The position numbers were made by a program, and so were the translations under genes. From NCBI GenBank assembly GCA_046731295.1, contig JBKPKU010000051.1, forward strand, positions 13,902 to 77,901: a stretch of 64,000 nt of DNA. Direction: 5' to 3'. The notes under the pieces are model-generated. The model saw only the letters and a program-made list of their open reading frames with translations. It ran no database searches and was not told where the DNA came from. This stretch comes from Actinomycetota bacterium (GTDB taxonomy: Bacteria > Actinomycetota > UBA4738 > HRBIN12). Numbering within the stretch: the stretch's first letter is position 1; each line of letters begins with the position of its first letter. Of the stretch, positions 38,391 to 53,177 are shown one piece after another.

Positions 38391-39050
38391 GTGACGGAGC
38401 CGCCGGCCGAACCGATCTCGGTGCGAGCTCGCTTCGAGCGCTTCCCGGCGACGGTCAAGGGTGCCTTCATCTTCCGGGGCGAGGCCCCCGACCCGCATCA
38501 GGTCGTGGTGGTCGGGGCGCGCGTGAGCGCGCTGGGGCCCGGCGGCTCGAGCCCGATGCCGCTCGCTCCGGTGACGCTGGACGTGGTTCCACACCGTGAC
38601 GTGTTCGTCCCGTTCGAGTTGCCGCTGGCCGACCTCGAGCCCGGCTGGTACACGCTCGTGTGCGACGTCGAGGTCGACGGGTCGCCGGCGACGTTCGACG
38701 GCGGACGCCGGTTCTCGGTGCCGTGGCCGCGCGCGACAGTTCGGCGCGGGCAGGTCAAGGTGGGGAAGCGGGTCCGCCTGGGCGATCAGACCGTGCAGGT
38801 CGAGCAGGTGGACTGCTCGGGCGACTCGATCAAGGTGAACCTGCGCATCGACCCGCCGGGCGCCGTGACGCTGAAGCTGTTCGCCGGCGGCCGGCGCCTC
38901 CGGGTGCTCGAGATGGAGGCCGACGAGGTCGGCCGAGCGAAGGCGACCGCCTATCCGCTGATGCGCGCGGACGAGGTCCTGCGGATCGAGCTGAGGGGCC
39001 GCCGACGCGGGTCCGAAGAGGCCATCGAGGTGCCGCTGACGCAGGGCTGA
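38391..39050 (+). CDS. Hypothetical protein
   Basis: The GTG starts immediately after the ahcY stop. The composition is protein-like and beta-rich, with no family recognised. Confidence 0.55.
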   Translation: MTEPPAEPISVRARFERFPATVKGAFIFRGEAPDPHQVVVVGARVSALGPGGSSPMPLAPVTLDVVPHRDVFVPFELPLADLEPGWYTLVCDVEVDGSPATFDGGRRFSVPWPRATVRRGQVKVGKRVRLGDQTVQVEQVDCSGDSIKVNLRIDPPGAVTLKLFAGGRRLRVLEMEADEVGRAKATAYPLMRADEVLRIELRGRRRGSEEAIEVPLTQG

Positions 39051-39086: not shown

Positions 39087-39893
39087 ATGCTGGCCCCGCT
39101 GCTCGACGCGCTGTTCCCCAAGCGATGCGCCGGGTGCGGCTCGGGGCCCTGGCCGTTCTGCGGCGGATGTCGCTCCGACCTCGTCGTCCTCGGCGAGCCG
39201 CGATGCGAGCGGTGCGGCGCGCCCTGTCCTCGGCCGGTGACCGGATGCCTCGACTGCCCGCCCGCGTCCATCGCGATCGCGCGCGCTTCCTTCGGGTTCG
39301 ACGGCCCGGTGCGCCGGGCCGTGCACCGGCTGAAGTTCGGCGGCTGGCGCTCGGTGGCCGAGGCGCTCGCGGGGGCCATGGCGCGGAGTTGGTCCGCCGA
39401 GGCGTGGCCGGCAGATGTCATCGCGTGGGTGCCGCTGTCGCGGGAGCGGCTCGCCGCGCGCGGGTACGACCAGGCCAGGGCTCTGGCGCGCGCCGTGGCG
39501 CCCCGGGTCGGCTTGCCGGCCGAGGGGCTGCTCCGCCGAGTGGGCGATCCTGGGCCGCAGGCCCGTCGCGGCGGCGCCGCCCGGCGGGAGGCCATGCGTG
39601 GCGTGTTCGCCCCGGCGGGCCGCATCTCGGGACGGGTCCTGCTGATCGACGACGTGCTGACCACCGGCGCCACGGGGGGCGCGTGCGGGGAGGCCCTGCT
39701 CTCGGGCGGCGCCTCGAGCGTGGGCCTGCTGACCGCGGCCCGCGCGGTGTCCTCGGCACGACGCCCCGGAACCCCCCCTATACTCGGCGTCGGGCTCGCG
39801 TCCGGGTCTGTGGTTGCCCCGGGGAGCGGCTCCCCGGCAGTCGATGCCAGCCGCGGGCGAAGCGACCCACGTAAGCCGACCCTTGGTCGGTGA
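39087..39893 (+). CDS. ComF-family phosphoribosyltransferase-like protein (ComFC type)
   Basis: N-terminal double CxxC zinc finger (CAGCGS...CGGC, CERCG...CLDC), then RGYDQA and the PRT loop VLLIDDVLTTGAT. The last roughly 45 codons look non-protein-like and may be read-through into the downstream RNA element. Confidence 0.8.
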   Translation: MLAPLLDALFPKRCAGCGSGPWPFCGGCRSDLVVLGEPRCERCGAPCPRPVTGCLDCPPASIAIARASFGFDGPVRRAVHRLKFGGWRSVAEALAGAMARSWSAEAWPADVIAWVPLSRERLAARGYDQARALARAVAPRVGLPAEGLLRRVGDPGPQARRGGAARREAMRGVFAPAGRISGRVLLIDDVLTTGATGGACGEALLSGGASSVGLLTAARAVSSARRPGTPPILGVGLASGSVVAPGSGSPAVDASRGRSDPRKPTLGR

Positions 39894-40035
39894 GCATGGC
39901 GCGGTTTAGATGTAAGTCCTGCCCCGGAGGGGTTCGCCTCGACGGGAGAGGGTGCGAAGCCGCCCGATGGGCGGCGATCATCCCCGCAGGCGGATGTGGG
40001 GACAAAGACCAGGTCAGCCGGACGCGGGCCCGCTC
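39876..40035 (+). ncRNA. Candidate structured RNA, raiA-motif-like by position (between comF and hpf). Boundaries are approximate.
   Basis: A 180-nt non-coding gap with nested helices read by eye: 39876-39890, 39922-39932, 39959-39975, cctgc 39918-22 with gcagg 39986-90, and tcccc 39981-85 with gggga 39998-40002. The genomic context matches the published raiA motif class. Confidence 0.4.
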
Positions 40036-40073
40036 GATCTTCGAGGGCGGGGAACGGGGGCGCGAAGGCACGC

Positions 40074-40475
40074 ATGGAGCTCGTGCTGAAGGGCCGAGGC
40101 GCCCGGGTGGCCCAGCGTCTGCGCGAGGTCACCCAACACAAGCTCGCGCGGATCGAACGCCTCGAGCCGTCGCTCACGCGTCTGGAGGTGGTCGTCACCG
40201 TCGAGAAGAACCCCCGGCAGGGCGGCCTGCACCGGATCGAGGCCGTCGCGGCCACACCGAGGAAGACCTATCGCGCCCACGCCGACGCCACGGACGTCGA
40301 CTCGGCCCTGGACGTGGTGGCCGAGCGGCTCGAGCGCCAGATCCTCGACCACCACAACCGCCGCCGGGCTCGTCGGAACGCGGGAGCGGGTCGCGTAAAA
40401 TCCGCGCAGATGCCGCTCGCTGGGGAAGCCACCGAGGACGTCGCCGAGGACGTGGAGCCGGGAGGCGCGGAGTGA
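40074..40475 (+). CDS. hpf: Ribosome hibernation promoting factor / RaiA family (short form)
   Basis: MELVLKGRGARVAQRLREVTQHKLARIERL...VEVVVTVEKNPR...AHADATDVDSALDVVAERLERQI. Confidence 0.85.
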   Translation: MELVLKGRGARVAQRLREVTQHKLARIERLEPSLTRLEVVVTVEKNPRQGGLHRIEAVAATPRKTYRAHADATDVDSALDVVAERLERQILDHHNRRRARRNAGAGRVKSAQMPLAGEATEDVAEDVEPGGAE

Positions 40476-41158
40476 GTGACAAGCCCGATGCGGGCTCTGA
40501 GACGCTCAGGGTGCTGGTCTGCGATGACCACGCGCTGTTCCGCCGGGGCCTGCAGATGGTCCTCGAGCAGGAACCCGATCTCGAGCTCGTCGGCGAGGCC
40601 GCGGACGGCGAGGAGGTGGTCGTCCGCGCCCAGGAGCTGATGCCGGACGTGATCCTGATGGACGTCCGGATGCCCCGGAGGTCCGGCATCGAGGCGGCGA
40701 GCGAGATCAAGGAGGCGCTGCCGCACGTCAAGATCCTCATGCTGACGATCAGCGACGACGAGGCCGACCTCTACGAGGCGATCAAGGCCGGCGCCTCCGG
40801 CTATCTGCTCAAGGAGATCCCGATCGAGGAGGTCGCCGACGCGATCCGATCGGTGTGGGCGGGGCAGTCGCGCATCAGTCCATCGATGGCGAGCAAGCTC
40901 CTGACGGAGTTCGCGGCGATGAGCAAGGCGACGGAGGAGAAGCCGCAGATGGCAACCCCACGGCTGACGGAGCGGGAGATGGAGGTGCTGCGCCTGGTCG
41001 CGCAGGGCCTCAACAATCGCGACATCGCCGCAAAGCTGTTCATCTCCGAGAACACCGTGAAGAACCACATCCGCAACATCCTGGAGAAGCTCCACCTGCA
41101 CTCCCGCATGGAGGCGGTCGTCTACGCCGTGCGGGAGAAGATGATCGAGATCAACTAG
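40472..41158 (+). CDS. NarL/FixJ-family response regulator (REC + LuxR HTH) with no adjacent kinase
   Basis: RVLVCDDHALFRRGL...DVILMDVRMP...KILMLT receiver motifs. The HTH reads LTEREMEVLRLVAQGLNNRDIAAKLFISENTVKNH. The GTG overlaps the hpf stop (GTGA at 40472-40475). Confidence 0.9.
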   Translation: MSDKPDAGSETLRVLVCDDHALFRRGLQMVLEQEPDLELVGEAADGEEVVVRAQELMPDVILMDVRMPRRSGIEAASEIKEALPHVKILMLTISDDEADLYEAIKAGASGYLLKEIPIEEVADAIRSVWAGQSRISPSMASKLLTEFAAMSKATEEKPQMATPRLTEREMEVLRLVAQGLNNRDIAAKLFISENTVKNHIRNILEKLHLHSRMEAVVYAVREKMIEIN

Positions 41159-44729: not shown

Positions 44730-45022
44730 CCCCCACCTCCCGTCTTGGTTCCGTGCCCGACGGTAGGGATCTCTCGGCCGTGCTTCGGTGACCGGCGGCA
44801 CGATGCGGGCGTGACCTGCCGCACCCGGCTCGGGCTAGGCTGCCCGCGGGAGGAACGGGTGGCCGAGGGACGACGCGAGGACCAGATGCGGCCGATCACG
44901 GCCCCTCGCCGAGGCGCTACCTCGAGTCCGTAGGCCCCGACGCGCCCGCCGGGTGCGAACTCGGCCATGCCGCGAGGATAGCCTCGGCGATGCGCTCGTT
45001 GGGCCCCGGTACGATGTCGCGC

Positions 45023-46133
45023 ATGAGCGAACACACCGAGCGCCTCGAGGACCTGACCAAGCGCATCGCCTCGGCGAAGGAGTTCCTTTGACGTCGACGG
45101 CAGGCGCTCGCGGGCGGCCGACCTGGAACGGCAGGCGGCCGAGCCGTCCCTGTGGGACGACCCAGAGCACGCGCGTTCGCTGACGACGCAGCTGTCCCGG
45201 CTGCAGGCCGAGCTCGAGCGCTACGACGGGCTCGTTCGCCGACTCGAGGACGCCACCGCGATGGACGAGCTGCTGGCCGACGAGGCCGATCCCGAGATGA
45301 CCGCGGACCTCGCGCGCGCGGTCAAGGAGCTCGAGGGCGACGTCGAGAAGCTCGAGCTCGCGACGCTCCTCGGCGGCGAGTACGACGACAACGACGCGGT
45401 CGCCACGCTGCACGCCGGCGCCGGCGGCACCGAGTCGCAGGACTGGGCCGAGATGCTGCTTCGCATGTACCTGCGTTGGGCCGAACGCGAGAAGCTCGAC
45501 GTCGAGATCGACGAGACGCTGTTCGGCGACGAGGCCGGGATCAAGAGCGCGACGTTCATCGTGCACGGGCCGTACGCCTACGGTCTGCTGTCGGCCGAAC
45601 GCGGAGTGCACCGCCTGGTTCGGATCTCGCCGTTCGATGCCCAGAAGCGCCGGCACACGTCGTTCGCCAACTTGGATGTCATCCCGCTGCTCGAAGAGAC
45701 GGGGGATGAGGACATCCTCATCGACCCGAAAGACCTCAGGATCGACGTCTACCGCTCGACCGGACCGGGGGGCCAGTCCGTCAACACGACGGACTCCGCC
45801 GTGCGGATCACCCATCTGCCGACGGGCATCGCGGCGGCGTGCCAGAACGAACGGTCCCAGCTCCAGAACCGCGCTGTGGCCATGCGGATCCTCAAGGCGC
45901 GACTGGCCGAGCGCATGCGCGAGGAGCAGCAGACCAAGTTGGAGAACCTACGCGGCGAGCGCAAGGGCATCGACTTCGGCTCGCAGATCCGATCGTACGT
46001 GCTCGCCCCGTACCGACTCGTGAAGGATCACCGGACCGACGTCGAGATCGGCGACGTGGATCGGGTCCTCGACGGCGACCTCGAGGAGCTCATCGAGGCG
46101 GAGCTCCGGCGGCGCGCCGAACCCGCATCCTGA
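45023..46133 (+). CDS. prfB: Peptide chain release factor 2, requiring a programmed +1 frameshift at CTT-TGA-C (45086-45092)
   Basis: Frame 0 reads ATG 45023 MSEHTERLEDLTKRIASAKEFL, then TGA at 45089-45091. The +1 frame from 45090 continues DVDGRRSRAADLERQAAEPSLWDD... into track ORF 45261..46133, which carries SPF and GGQ motifs. An SD-like AGGAG lies upstream of CTT. Confidence 0.9.
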
Positions 46134-52316: not shown

Positions 52317-52793
52317 ATGAGCCCAAAGGCCGATCCCGCCGGACAGAAGACCGTCGTCTCGAACCGCCGCGCGCGGCACGACTACGAGATCCTGGAGCGC
52401 TTCGAGACCGGCATCGTGCTTTCCGGCGCGGAGGTCAAGTCGCTGCGCGGCGGCCATGGCTCCCTAGCCGAGGCGTTCGCCCGCGTTCGGGACGGGGAGG
52501 TCTGGCTCGAGGGGATGCACATCCCGCCGTACGCGCAGGCGGCGGACAGGTCCCGATACCAGCCAACGAGGCCCCGCAAGCTCCTGCTCCATCGAAAGGA
52601 GATCGAGCGGTTGGTCGGCAAGGCCGCCGAGCGCGGTCTGGCGCTCGTGCCGATGCGCATGTACTTCGCGCACGGGCTGGCCAAGGTCGAGCTCGGGCTG
52701 GGGCGTGGCAAGCGGCAGTTCGAGAAGCGCCAGGCGATCGCCGAGCGCGAGCACCGTCGCGAGATGGAGCGCGAGGCCGGACGCCGTCGGTAG
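52317..52793 (+). CDS. smpB: SsrA-binding protein SmpB
   Basis: NRRARHDYEILERFETGIVLSGAEVKSLR...LLLHRKEI... Confidence 0.95.
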   Translation: MSPKADPAGQKTVVSNRRARHDYEILERFETGIVLSGAEVKSLRGGHGSLAEAFARVRDGEVWLEGMHIPPYAQAADRSRYQPTRPRKLLLHRKEIERLVGKAAERGLALVPMRMYFAHGLAKVELGLGRGKRQFEKRQAIAEREHRREMEREAGRRR

Positions 52794-52823
52794 GCCCGTA
52801 TACTCTCGGTCACAACCGCATAT

Positions 52824-53177
52824 GGGGGTGTACTGGCTTCGATCTGGACGGATGCCGTTCAGGAGAAGCGGGCCGAGGTCCCCGGATGCCTCGTTAAAAG
52901 CCGGGACAAACACAAGCGCCGATTCTGAATACGCGCTCGCTGCCTAGGTAGCTAGGTAGCCGTCCCCTCCGGGTCGCCTGCGACCGGAGGATGGGCGTCG
53001 TGAGCAGGCTCACGGATGTGGCTCCGCCCGGGGGCCGCCGCCGGACACCGCACCCGGGCTGGCCGAGAGGTGCTCCGCCGGCGGGAGCCTCGAGGCGAGA
53101 TCGATCCGCCGGCTGCGCCCGGAGAAGCCCTGAGCGGTCGCCCAGAGACAGGGGTTCGAATCCCCTCACCTCCACCA
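52824..53177 (+). ncRNA. ssrA: tmRNA (SsrA)
   Basis: 5' GGGGGUG pairs with CACCUCC-ACCA at the 3' end, including the G3:U wobble. The T-arm is GGGGTTCGAATCCCC. The tag frame ...GCC GAT TCT GAA TAC GCG CTC GCT GCC TAG encodes ADSEYALAA. CGGAGAAGCCCTGAG is similar to the mycobacterial tmRNA I recall. It lies immediately downstream of smpB. Confidence 0.9.

What the first reader, a model, noticed from the sequence alone, without database searches (positions are those of the whole stretch)
39829..40060. Probable raiA-motif-like structured RNA between comF and hpf
A 180-nt gap separates the comF stop (39893) from the hpf ATG (40074). The last 45 or so comF codons (after ...LLTAARAV) have non-protein-like composition. 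No credible ORF lies in this stretch, but it is packed with nested helices that I can pair by eye. They are ccgggga/tccccgg (39829-39847), ccgacc/ggtcgg (39876-39890), cccc/gggg (39922-39932) and gccgccc/gggcggc (39959-39975). A long-range cctgc (39918-22) pairs with gcagg (39986-90), and tcccc (39981-85) pairs with gggga (39998-40002). The raiA motif is a large ncRNA class of unknown function described in Actinobacteria and Firmicutes. It is characteristically found between comFC and raiA/hpf, sometimes overlapping the comFC 3' end. The position here matches exactly.
Basis: partly seen in the sequence, partly recalled or inferred. Interest (0 to 1): 0.7.

Follow-up and report, generated by a model that had tools for sequence, protein, structure and literature searches.

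The report
Confirmed raiA (ModT) noncoding RNA gene

Summary
The finding is correct. Rfam's raiA model (RF03072) matches window 39797-40026 (+) over its full length at 143.6 bits (gathering score 101.3, E 1.6e-35). Every helix of the published cryo-EM architecture can be drawn on the sequence: P1a/b/c with GU and GGU bulges, P2, P3a/b, P4-P8, pseudoknots PK1 and PK2, and the UUAGAUGUAA linker. P1a runs 5 bp beyond the Rfam hit, so the RNA spans about 39792-40031.

In 28 actinobacterial homologues 95.9% of pairs are kept, against 30-43% when partners are slid. 26 pairs show compensatory changes, including pairs in both pseudoknots.

A -10 box (TATACT, 39779-39784) lies 7 nt upstream of P1a. It is invariant in the six closest relatives.

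The comF reading frame runs 102 nt into the RNA as a non-coding-like tail. hpf starts only 42 nt after P1a. No -10-like promoter hexamer or U-tract terminator lies between them, either here or in about 68 metagenomic relatives, so hpf is probably co-transcribed with the RNA.

Two are not, and one coordinate pair is off by 10.

This is a known family, so interest is low to moderate.

The parts
39779..39784 (+). Predicted -10 promoter hexamer TATACT. It lies 7 nt upstream of the first P1a base, inside the comF ORF tail.
   Evidence: TATACTCG is invariant in 7 of 7 clade sequences although the DNA around it is variable. A TANNNT hexamer lies 4-8 nt upstream of P1a in 28 of 28 actinobacterial raiA loci, and 5-8 nt upstream in 70 of 73 metagenomic clade loci. 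There are only two TATACT in the 64 kb (0.7 expected). The other is 19 nt upstream of the tmRNA gene. That it acts as a promoter is inferred, not shown.
39792..40031 (+). raiA-motif (ModT) RNA, full extent including the 14-bp P1a
   Evidence: Rfam RF03072 hits 39797-40026 at 143.6 bits. Five further P1a pairs on each side are kept and covary in relatives.
39792..39814 (+). P1 5' strand: P1a 39792-39805, GU bulge 39806-07, P1b 39808-10, P1c 39811-14
   Evidence: Pairs with 40008-40031. In the P1a+P1b helix, 11 of 17 pairs have changes on both sides among 28 sequences. P1b switches U-A to C-G (9 sequences against 19).
39819..39837 (+). P2 hairpin (8 bp, loop CGG).
   Evidence: It appears as a 20-nt insertion relative to the Rfam consensus. 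One compensatory G-C to A-U change is seen in L001. The stem is described in PMC12968392.
39840..39866 (+). P3a (39840-43/39863-66), asymmetric loop AU/GAAG, P3b (39846-48/39856-58), and an apical loop whose bases 39850-55 form PK1
   Evidence: Mapping. P3a U-A changes to C-G in 19 of 28 sequences. The loop geometry matches the Ns-raiA description.
39867..39870 (+). P4 5' strand (CCAC), pairing with GUGG at 39996-39999
   Evidence: Invariant in 28 of 28 sequences, so it is neither supported nor contradicted by covariation here.
39875..39891 (+). The comF stop codon UGA (39891-93) begins at the last base of its 3' strand.
   Evidence: compensatory changes at 4 of 7 pairs in the 28-sequence set.
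39896..39915 (+). PK-L strand: PK2 (39897-98 with 40003-04), PK1 3' strand (39900-05), and the exposed linker UUAGAUGUAA (39906-15)
   Evidence: PK1 has 3 of 6 pairs with changes on both sides. PK2 pair U-A occurs in 9 sequences and C-G in 19. The linker matches the family's UUAGA(N)GUAA, the proposed KhpA-KhpB site.
39918..39990 (+).
   Evidence: Outer P7 and proximal P8 each show 3 of 4 pairs with changes on both sides. Distal P8 has 4 of 7 covarying pairs within the clade. The P8 internal loop is CGAA/GAUC, not the family's usual E-loop AGUA/GAA.
39996..40031 (+). 3' closing strands: P4 (39996-99), 8-nt linker GGACAAAG containing PK2 (40000-07), P1c (40008-11), GGU bulge (40012-14), P1b (40015-17), P1a (40018-31)
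   Evidence: and the structural description.
39087..39893 (+). comF/comFC-like ORF. The family-homologous part ends near 39743. The 49-codon tail 39744-39890 plus the stop codon overlaps the promoter and 102 nt of raiA.
   Evidence: In relatives the tail is read in other frames and stops at other positions inside raiA. The ORF ends inside raiA in 52 of 64 metagenomic loci.
40032..40073 (+). 42-nt spacer with a Shine-Dalgarno-like GAAGG (40064-68). It has no TANNNT hexamer, no T-run and no conserved hairpin.
   Evidence: Among 68 clade spacers, 4 contain TANNNT, 1 has a run of four or more T, and 65 have an SD-like motif.
40074..40475 (+). Short hpf/yfiA-type hibernation factor (133 aa, S30AE domain only), probably co-transcribed with raiA
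   Evidence: Pfam PF02482 and TIGR00741, with profile position 1 aligned to residue 1. Its stop overlaps the start of the NarL-type response regulator (40472-41158) in GTGA.

Best explanation
This is the gene for a raiA-motif (ModT) RNA of the subtype that has both P2 and P8.

Shown by computation:
- The sequence matches the family covariance model over its full length.
- It can form every helix and both pseudoknots of the cryo-EM architecture.
- These pairs are maintained by compensatory substitutions in relatives.

Inferred from sequence:
- Transcription starts at about 39791-39793 from a -10-only promoter (TATACT) embedded in the non-homologous tail of comF. The transcript therefore begins at the base of a 14-bp P1a helix that clamps the 5' and 3' ends.
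- No -10-like promoter hexamer or U-tract terminator lies in the 42 nt before hpf. The same transcript probably continues into hpf and the response-regulator gene. The roughly 240-nt RNA would be released by processing, or would persist as a stable decay product.

Inferred from work on clostridial homologues, not tested here:
- The folded RNA acts in trans as an abundant, long-lived RNA.
- It probably works within a protein complex, with KhpA-KhpB proposed to bind the exposed UUAGAUGUAA linker.
- It tunes the switch from growth to stationary phase. Its biochemical activity is unknown.
For: - Rfam hit: 143.6 bits against a gathering score of 101.3, full length, + strand only.
- All 77 pairs of the published architecture form with standard or G-U pairs. 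The structure description comes from PMC12968392.
- Covariation, 7 clade sequences: 93.6% of cells paired against 35-45% when slid, 17 compensatory pairs, and 0 of 500 shuffles as high.
- Covariation, 28 sequences: 95.9% paired against 30-43% when slid, 26 compensatory pairs, including pairs in PK1, PK2, P1b and P3a.
- Many G-U pairs exist that would be A-C on the other strand, which fixes the orientation.
- Synteny comF-raiA-hpf-RR-secA is kept in all six closest genomes, with Rfam scores of 138-151 bits.
- Promoter: TATACTCG is invariant in the clade. TANNNT lies 4-8 nt before P1a in 28 of 28 loci, with CTGACA at a 17-nt spacing in 13 of them, and 5-8 nt before P1a in 70 of 73 metagenomic loci. 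The only other TATACT in the window precedes the tmRNA gene. C. difficile ModT likewise has its own SigA promoter.
- Co-transcription with hpf: the spacer is 28-53 nt in the clade, with a median of 41 nt in 69 metagenomic loci. Of 68 spacers, 4 contain TANNNT and 1 has a T-run.
- Trans action, abundance and phenotypes: PMC10861870 and PMC11706538. KhpA-KhpB binding.
Against: - There are no transcript data for this organism or any close relative. The start site, the 3' end and any processing are all inferred.
- The tight fusion to hpf (42 nt, no terminator) looks more like a 5' leader than like the free-standing clostridial genes. Rfam still labels the family 'Cis-reg; riboswitch'.
- The P8 E-loop, which docks on PK1 in the solved structures, is replaced by CGAA/GAUC throughout this clade. 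Tertiary packing may therefore differ.
- All functional evidence comes from spore-forming Clostridia. Lence et al. reported that their earlier analyses found no ModT binding to KhpB in C. difficile. The KhpA-KhpB binding measured in vitro has only micromolar affinity.
- I did not look for khpA or khpB in the window.
Confidence: 0.88

Rival explanations
1. The structure is a cis-acting 5' leader of the hpf-response regulator operon, either riboswitch-like or mRNA-stabilising. It would control or protect the downstream message rather than act as a free RNA.
For: - hpf starts 42 nt after P1a.
- In 68 clade spacers there is almost never a -10 hexamer (4 of 68) or a T-run (1 of 68).
- The orientation and the hpf partnership are fixed across the clade.
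- The Rfam type label is 'Cis-reg; riboswitch'.
- The 2017 discovery paper noted that the position is consistent with a 5' UTR.
Against: - There is no expression platform. No conserved terminator or SD-sequestering hairpin occurs in seven aligned spacers, and the spacers are variable and mostly unstructured.
- In two Clostridia the deletion phenotypes are rescued in trans, and the RNA is far more abundant than an mRNA leader.
- In other Actinomycetes the gap to hpf reaches 126-440 nt.
- The 2017 paper reported that in-vitro experiments gave no evidence of small-molecule binding.
Confidence: 0.1
2. The conservation reflects a protein-coding C-terminal extension of ComF, and the hairpins are incidental to GC-rich coding DNA.
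For: An uninterrupted ORF does run from 39087 to 39893. tblastn finds 'similarity' to residues 232-268 of that ORF in relatives.
Against: - In all six relatives that similarity lies in a different frame from the ComF body.
- The ORFs stop at different places inside raiA, at +45, +81 or +101.
- The ComF family profiles end at residue 219.
- GC3 drops from 0.92 in the body to 0.71 in the tail.
- Conservation continues 138 nt past the stop codon.
Confidence: 0.01
3. Chance folding of 70% GC intergenic DNA, with no functional RNA.
For: GC-rich DNA folds strongly by default.
Against: E 1.6e-35 against a curated model, z = -3.4 against shuffles, 26 covarying pairs, and conservation across genomes whose SecA is only 53-84% identical.
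Confidence: 0.005

Closest known systems
raiA motif RNA / ModT (Rfam RF03072; Weinberg 2017, Soares 2024, Lence 2024)
   Same: - Full-length covariance-model match.
- All core helices, both pseudoknots, the conserved bulges and the conserved linker are present.
- The comFC-upstream, hpf-downstream context is present, with RR, secA and prfB nearby.
- The phylum is Actinomycetota.
- A promoter abuts the RNA, as in C. difficile.
   Different: - The gene is squeezed between its neighbours. comF reads 102 nt into it, and hpf begins 42 nt after it with no terminator. The clostridial genes studied so far are free-standing, with their own terminators or defined 3' ends.
- The host is an uncultured, non-clostridial lineage.
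Ns-raiA, the Nocardioides sp. Iso805N raiA RNA solved by cryo-EM (PMC12968392), the P2+P8 subtype
   Same: Same subtype, with P2 present and a P6-P7-P8 three-way junction. The J1 residues (G, C before P2; A before P3a), the P3 internal loop (AU/GAAG against AU/AAAG) and the 8-nt P4-P1c linker register are near-identical.
   Different: - The PK2 pair is U-A here and C-G in Ns-raiA, which is a compensatory change.
- P7 is 8 bp with a bulge here, against 14 bp in Ns-raiA.
- The P8 internal loop lacks the E-loop consensus.
- Natural P1a appears to be 14 bp here, against 9 bp in the construct and in the Rfam model.
Riboswitch or structured 5' leaders of stress genes
   Same: [quoted passage not shown]
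   Different: It has no expression platform and no known ligand. Family members act in trans in the two species tested.
tmRNA gene of the same window (52824-53177)
   Same: It is another stable structured RNA gene and is preceded by the same TATACT hexamer. These are the only two copies in 64 kb.
   Different: The fold and function are unrelated. In tmRNA the hexamer lies 19 nt before the mature 5' end, which is consistent with a processed precursor.

Membership tests
raiA motif RNA (RF03072) | Covariance-model score at or above the curated gathering score, over the full model | tested here: met
   143.6 bits against 101.3, model positions 1-209 of 209, E 1.6e-35.
raiA motif RNA (RF03072) | Closing stem P1a-P1b-P1c with a conserved GU bulge (5' side) and GGU bulge (3' side) | tested here: met
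   GU at 39806-07 and GGU at 40012-14. All pairs form, and P1a and P1b covary.
raiA motif RNA (RF03072) | P3a-P3b hairpin bent by an asymmetric A-rich internal loop | tested here: met
   GUCG/CGAC, loop AU/GAAG, GCC/GGC. P3a has U-A in 9 sequences and C-G in 19. The bend itself cannot be tested with these tools.
raiA motif RNA (RF03072) | Pseudoknot PK1: the P3b apical loop pairs with the strand just 5' of the UUAGA linker | tested here: met
   39850-55 with 39900-05, 6 bp. 99.4% of cells are paired and 3 of 6 pairs change on both sides.
raiA motif RNA (RF03072) | Pseudoknot PK2: PK-L pairs with the P4-P1c linker | tested here: met
   U39897-A40004 and G39898-C40003. The first pair is U-A in 9 sequences and C-G in 19. 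Two clade members (L003, L004) have a shifted linker.
raiA motif RNA (RF03072) | Conserved single-stranded linker UUAGA(N)GUAA between PK1 and P6 | tested here: met
   UUAGAUGUAA at 39906-15. The same variant occurs in 45 of 75 metagenomic clade loci.
raiA motif RNA (RF03072) | P4 and P6 helices closing the two inner junctions | tested here: inconclusive
   Both can form, but both are invariant in all 28 sequences. There is no covariation evidence from this set, so support rests on the literature.
raiA motif RNA (RF03072) | E-loop (AGUA/GAA) in P8. This is frequent in the multi-stem subtype but is not obligatory. | tested here: not met
   The loop is CGAA/GAUC here. AGUAG is absent in 75 of 75 clade loci and present in most of the other Actinomycetes aligned. 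The family description says 'often', so this does not exclude membership.
raiA motif RNA (RF03072) | Genomic context: downstream of comFC and upstream of raiA/hpf, in Bacillota or Actinomycetota | tested here: met
.
raiA motif RNA (RF03072) | Single copy per genome | tested here: inconclusive
   There is one hit in the 64-kb window. The rest of the genome was not available.
raiA motif RNA (RF03072) | Abundant, stable, trans-acting transcript; KhpA-KhpB binding | not testable with these tools
   Known only from C. acetobutylicum and C. difficile and from in-vitro work.
Riboswitch / cis-regulatory leader | Expression platform (intrinsic terminator or SD-sequestering helix) coupled to the aptamer | tested here: not met
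   No terminator-like site on the + strand between 39000 and 40600. No conserved hairpin in seven spacers. 1 of 68 spacers has a T-run.
Riboswitch / cis-regulatory leader | Specific ligand binding | not testable with these tools
   The 2017 paper reported that in-vitro experiments gave no evidence of small-molecule binding.

The most novel reading that the evidence does not exclude
In this uncultured actinobacterial clade the raiA RNA may be made only as the 5' part of a raiA-hpf(-response regulator) transcript, driven by one -10 promoter at the foot of P1. Production of the RNA and of a short, dimerisation-domain-less hibernation factor would then be mechanically coupled. The RNA might act in cis on hpf (stability or translation), or be matured from the mRNA by cleavage in the 20-80-nt spacer. 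That would be a different life cycle from the free-standing clostridial genes, and it would give a direct handle on the long-suspected link between raiA RNA and ribosome hibernation.
Probability: 0.15. Interest if true: 0.55.

Novelty: already known. Interest (0 to 1): 0.25.

Why it matters
raiA/ModT is one of the most widespread large bacterial RNAs that still has no known biochemical function. This copy adds nothing categorically new.

The modest added value lies in the lineage-level anatomy:
- A conserved -10 box abuts a 14-bp P1a across Actinomycetota.
- The comF reading frame habitually terminates inside the RNA.
- The spacer to a short hpf contains no -10-like promoter hexamer or U-tract terminator.
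- P8 lacks the E-loop.

These features make the clade a natural test case for two questions: whether the RNA is matured from an hpf mRNA, and whether the P8-PK1 dock is dispensable.

Tried and rejected
Those pairs never vary, and they conflict with the cryo-EM architecture, so I did not use them.
- The sigma-70 consensus scan found no promoter. It requires both hexamers and so misses -10-only actinobacterial promoters. Alignment of relatives was needed.
- I looked for a -35 box in the clade. The best match was 2 of 6, so I describe the promoter as -10-only. Other Actinomycetes do have CTGACA at a 17-nt spacing.
- I looked for a conserved hairpin, terminator or SD-masking helix in the raiA-hpf spacer and found none.
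- I considered that the ComF tail is a real, conserved peptide. The frame shifts between relatives rule this out.
- I did not build my own covariance model, because a model of about 240 nt would probably exceed the calibration limit. I used MAFFT alignments anchored on the invariant core, and left P2 and the inner parts of P7 and P8 out of the 28-sequence count because they align poorly there.
- Simple anchor matching mislocated four distant loci (L080, L012, L026, L076). I corrected them from nhmmer coordinates.
Full report
**1. Observation**

The region was read directly.
- The comF-like ORF ends with TGA at 39891-39893.
- The 230-nt core folds to -124.8 kcal/mol, against -107.8 +/- 5.0 for dinucleotide shuffles (z = -3.4, 0 of 200 shuffles as good).
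- The ComF family profiles (TIGR00201 and GntX) end at residue 219 of the 268-residue ORF.
- The last 49 codons lose the codon-position GC signature. GC1/2/3 is 0.76/0.76/0.71 in the tail against 0.77/0.66/0.92 in the body.

**2. Identity**

A gathering-threshold scan of the whole window against Rfam 15 gives two hits only.
- raiA (RF03072) at 39797-40026 on the + strand: 143.6 bits, gathering score 101.3, E 1.6e-35, model positions 1-209 of 209.
- tmRNA at 52824-53177.

The flanking genes are as follows.
- A ComF/GntX-type protein lies upstream.
- A 133-aa HPF/YfiA protein with only the S30AE domain lies downstream.
- A NarL-type response regulator follows; its GTG start overlaps the hpf stop.
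- SecA comes next.
- Further downstream are prfB, ftsE, ftsX, smpB and the tmRNA gene.

This is the neighbourhood published for raiA motif RNAs: 74% lie downstream of comFC and 66% upstream of raiA/hpf, with RR, secA and prfB nearby (PMC10861870).

**3. Anatomy**

I used the cryo-EM description of the Nocardioides RNA (PMC12968392) to place every element on the window sequence. A script confirmed that all 77 pairs are standard or G-U.

| Element | Coordinates |
|---|---|
| P1a | 39792-39805 / 40018-40031 |
| GU bulge | 39806-07 |
| P1b | 39808-10 / 40015-17 |
| GGU bulge | 40012-14 |
| P1c | 39811-14 / 40008-11 |
| P2 | 39819-26 / 39830-37 |
| P3a | 39840-43 / 39863-66 |
| P3 internal loop | AU / GAAG |
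| P3b | 39846-48 / 39856-58 |
| PK1 | 39850-55 / 39900-05 |
| P4 | 39867-70 / 39996-99 |
| P5 | 39875-81 / 39885-91 |
| PK2 | 39897-98 / 40003-04 |
| Exposed linker UUAGAUGUAA | 39906-15 |
| P6 | 39918-22 / 39986-90 |
| P7 | 39923-46 |
| P8 | 39950-83 |

- The 20-nt 'insertion' in the Rfam alignment is simply P2, which 42% of family members carry.
Those bases belong to P6/P7, to P8 and to the P4 3' strand.

**4. Relatives and covariation**

A SecA-based scan of one genome per species returned 80 loci. The closest are uncultured Actinomycetota MAGs with 74-84% SecA identity. Cultured genera reach at most about 60%.

A single-sequence nhmmer search found raiA homologues upstream of secA, on the same strand, in 27 of the 80 loci. 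All six closest relatives keep comF-raiA-hpf-RR-secA and score 138-151 bits with Rfam.

On the 7-sequence clade alignment:
- 93.6% of cells are paired, against 35-45% when partners are slid by 1-3 columns.
- 17 pairs show changes on both sides.
- No shuffle out of 500 reaches the observed value.

On 28 sequences, counting only the well-aligned helices:
- 95.9% of cells are paired, against 30-43% when slid.
- 26 of 60 pairs show changes on both sides.
- The covarying pairs include P1b (U-A 9, C-G 19), P3a (U-A 9, C-G 19), PK1 (3 of 6 pairs) and PK2 (U-A 9, C-G 19).

P4, P6 and P1c are invariant in this set and so are uninformative here.

The five outermost P1a pairs, which lie beyond the Rfam model and beyond the cryo-EM construct, are kept and covary. 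In metagenomic clade members, 59 of 73 have at least 13 of 14 P1a pairs.

Caveat: these counts are per sequence, not per evolutionary event. The window's clade accounts for most of the U-A states.

**5. Promoter (inferred)**

TATACTCG (39779-39786) is invariant in all seven clade sequences, although the surrounding comF-tail DNA is poorly conserved.

A TANNNT hexamer ends 4-8 nt before the first P1a base in 28 of 28 actinobacterial loci. In 13 of them it is preceded by CTGACA at a 17-nt spacing.

In 73 metagenomic loci retrieved with a clade-specific P1b-P1c pattern, 70 have TANNNT 5-8 nt before P1a. The hexamers are TATACT in 31, TATCCT in 19 and TATAAT in 12.

TATACT occurs only twice in the 64 kb, with 0.7 expected. 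The second copy lies 19 nt upstream of the tmRNA gene.

The transcript therefore most likely begins at the foot of P1a. This parallels the SigA promoter and single start site mapped for C. difficile ModT. The clade has no recognisable -35 box.

**6. Overlap with comF**

In the window the comF frame has no stop codon until UGA at 39891-93, which is 102 nt into the RNA.

In the six relatives the ORF also ends inside raiA, at +45 or +81. The apparent 'tail homology' found by tblastn is in a different frame from the ComF body in every case.

Among metagenomic loci, 52 of 64 comF ORFs end inside raiA. Most stop at +46 to +48, at a UAG in the P2-P3a junction. The rest end within 57 nt upstream.

The tail is therefore a by-product of RNA-level conservation, not a conserved peptide.

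**7. Relation to hpf**

The spacer from the end of P1a to the hpf start is 42 nt here, 28-53 nt in the six relatives, and has a median of 41 nt (20-81, one outlier) in 69 metagenomic loci.

The spacers are variable, mostly unstructured and share no hairpin. Of 68 spacers, only 4 contain any TANNNT, 1 has a run of four or more T, and 65 carry an SD-like motif.

The simplest reading is that hpf, and the overlapping response-regulator gene, are transcribed through raiA from the raiA promoter and/or from comF.

This differs from the general statement that the motif is usually hundreds of nucleotides from the next ORF. It also differs from the terminator-bounded clostridial genes. Other Actinomycetes in my set range from 23 to 440 nt.

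In this clade HPF is short (about 106-135 aa). In the other Actinomycetes it is 195-286 aa in all but one locus, where the ORF appears truncated.

**8. How it most likely works**

- Shown here: family membership, fold compatibility, covariation and synteny.
- Inferred here: the promoter, the start site at the base of P1, and co-transcription with hpf.
- Taken from the literature on Clostridia: the RNA is constitutively made, is extremely abundant and stable, and acts in trans.
  - Its loss delays entry into stationary phase and impairs sporulation and aggregation. In C. difficile this works partly through raised c-di-GMP.
  - KhpA-KhpB binds family members with an affinity of about 2 uM, possibly at the exposed UUAGA(N)GUAA linker.
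  - The biochemical activity is unknown.

I therefore commit to the following. This is a stable, compactly folded trans-acting RNA that is most likely protein-associated and involved in growth-phase transition. In this lineage it is produced from the same transcription unit as a hibernation factor.

The main rival, a purely cis-acting leader, gains some support from the fused arrangement. It lacks any expression platform and runs against the trans-complementation data. I give it about 0.1.

**9. Comparison and novelty**

All defining features that could be tested are met. The exception is the frequent, but not obligatory, P8 E-loop. It is replaced by CGAA/GAUC here and is absent in 75 of 75 clade loci.

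Rfam's type label 'Cis-reg; riboswitch' is at odds with the experimental papers.

The element is a member of an already known family and is detectable with the standard model. The lineage-specific details are refinements, not a new kind of element. Those details are:
- the 14-bp P1a;
- the -10 box inside comF;
- comF stops inside the RNA;
- the tight link to a short hpf;
- the missing E-loop.

Interest is 0.25.

Noticed in passing
window 52799-52804 and 52824-53177: The only other TATACT in the 64 kb lies 19 nt upstream of the tmRNA gene (Rfam RF00023, 119.2 bits). The same near-consensus -10 box therefore precedes both structured-RNA genes of the window. smpB (52317-52793) lies immediately upstream.
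   Followed up: partly
window 45011-46133, site 45086-45092: prfB (RF2) carries the classical programmed +1 frameshift. Frame 0 reads MSRMSEHTERLEDLTKRIASAKEFL, then CUU UGA C, preceded by an SD-like AAGGAG. The PCRF/RF-1 domains continue in the +1 frame (ORF 45261-46133 matches the PCRF profile from position 56).
   Followed up: partly
window 40074-40475 and 40472-41158: The hibernation factor is a short form (133 aa, S30AE domain only, no C-terminal dimerisation domain, acidic Ala/Gly-rich tail). It is translationally coupled (GTGA overlap) to a NarL/LuxR response regulator. Clade relatives have HPF of about 106-135 aa, whereas the other Actinomycetes in the set have 195-286 aa in all but one locus.
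   Followed up: partly
L081-L200 (metagenomic clade loci); equivalent of window 39838-39840: In most clade members the comF stop codon is the UAG of the conserved P2-P3a junction of raiA (ORF end at +46 to +48). The window has CAG there and reads on to the UGA that follows P5. A protein's stop codon is thus supplied by conserved RNA-gene sequence.
   Followed up: partly
window 39954-39958 / 39976-39979: The P8 internal loop is CGAA/GAUC instead of the family's E-loop AGUA/GAA, which docks on PK1 in the solved structures. AGUAG is absent from 75 of 75 clade loci. The loop might be a tandem G-A motif.
   Followed up: partly
window 39792-39796 / 40027-40031; alignment A3 columns 1-5 / 369-373: P1a is 14 bp, 5 bp longer than in the Rfam model and the published cryo-EM construct. 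The extra pairs covary across 28 Actinomycetota sequences. I could not see the 2024 consensus figure to check whether this is already drawn there.
   Followed up: yes
output (Rfam RF03072 record): Rfam 15 lists raiA as type 'Cis-reg; riboswitch'. The 2024-2026 experimental papers conclude that it acts in trans and lacks riboswitch features.
   Followed up: yes
window 38391-39050: A 219-aa protein with no Pfam or NCBIfam match. Its GTG start codon (38391) immediately follows the last base of the AdoHcyase ORF (38390). It is conserved upstream of comF in clade relatives (50-65% identity in L001, L003 and L005).
   Followed up: no
L058, L060 (genome contigs): Short contigs binned as Sphingomonas paucimobilis and Oscillatoria nigro-viridis MAGs encode a SecA 55-60% identical to this actinobacterial SecA. 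This probably reflects bin contamination.
   Followed up: no
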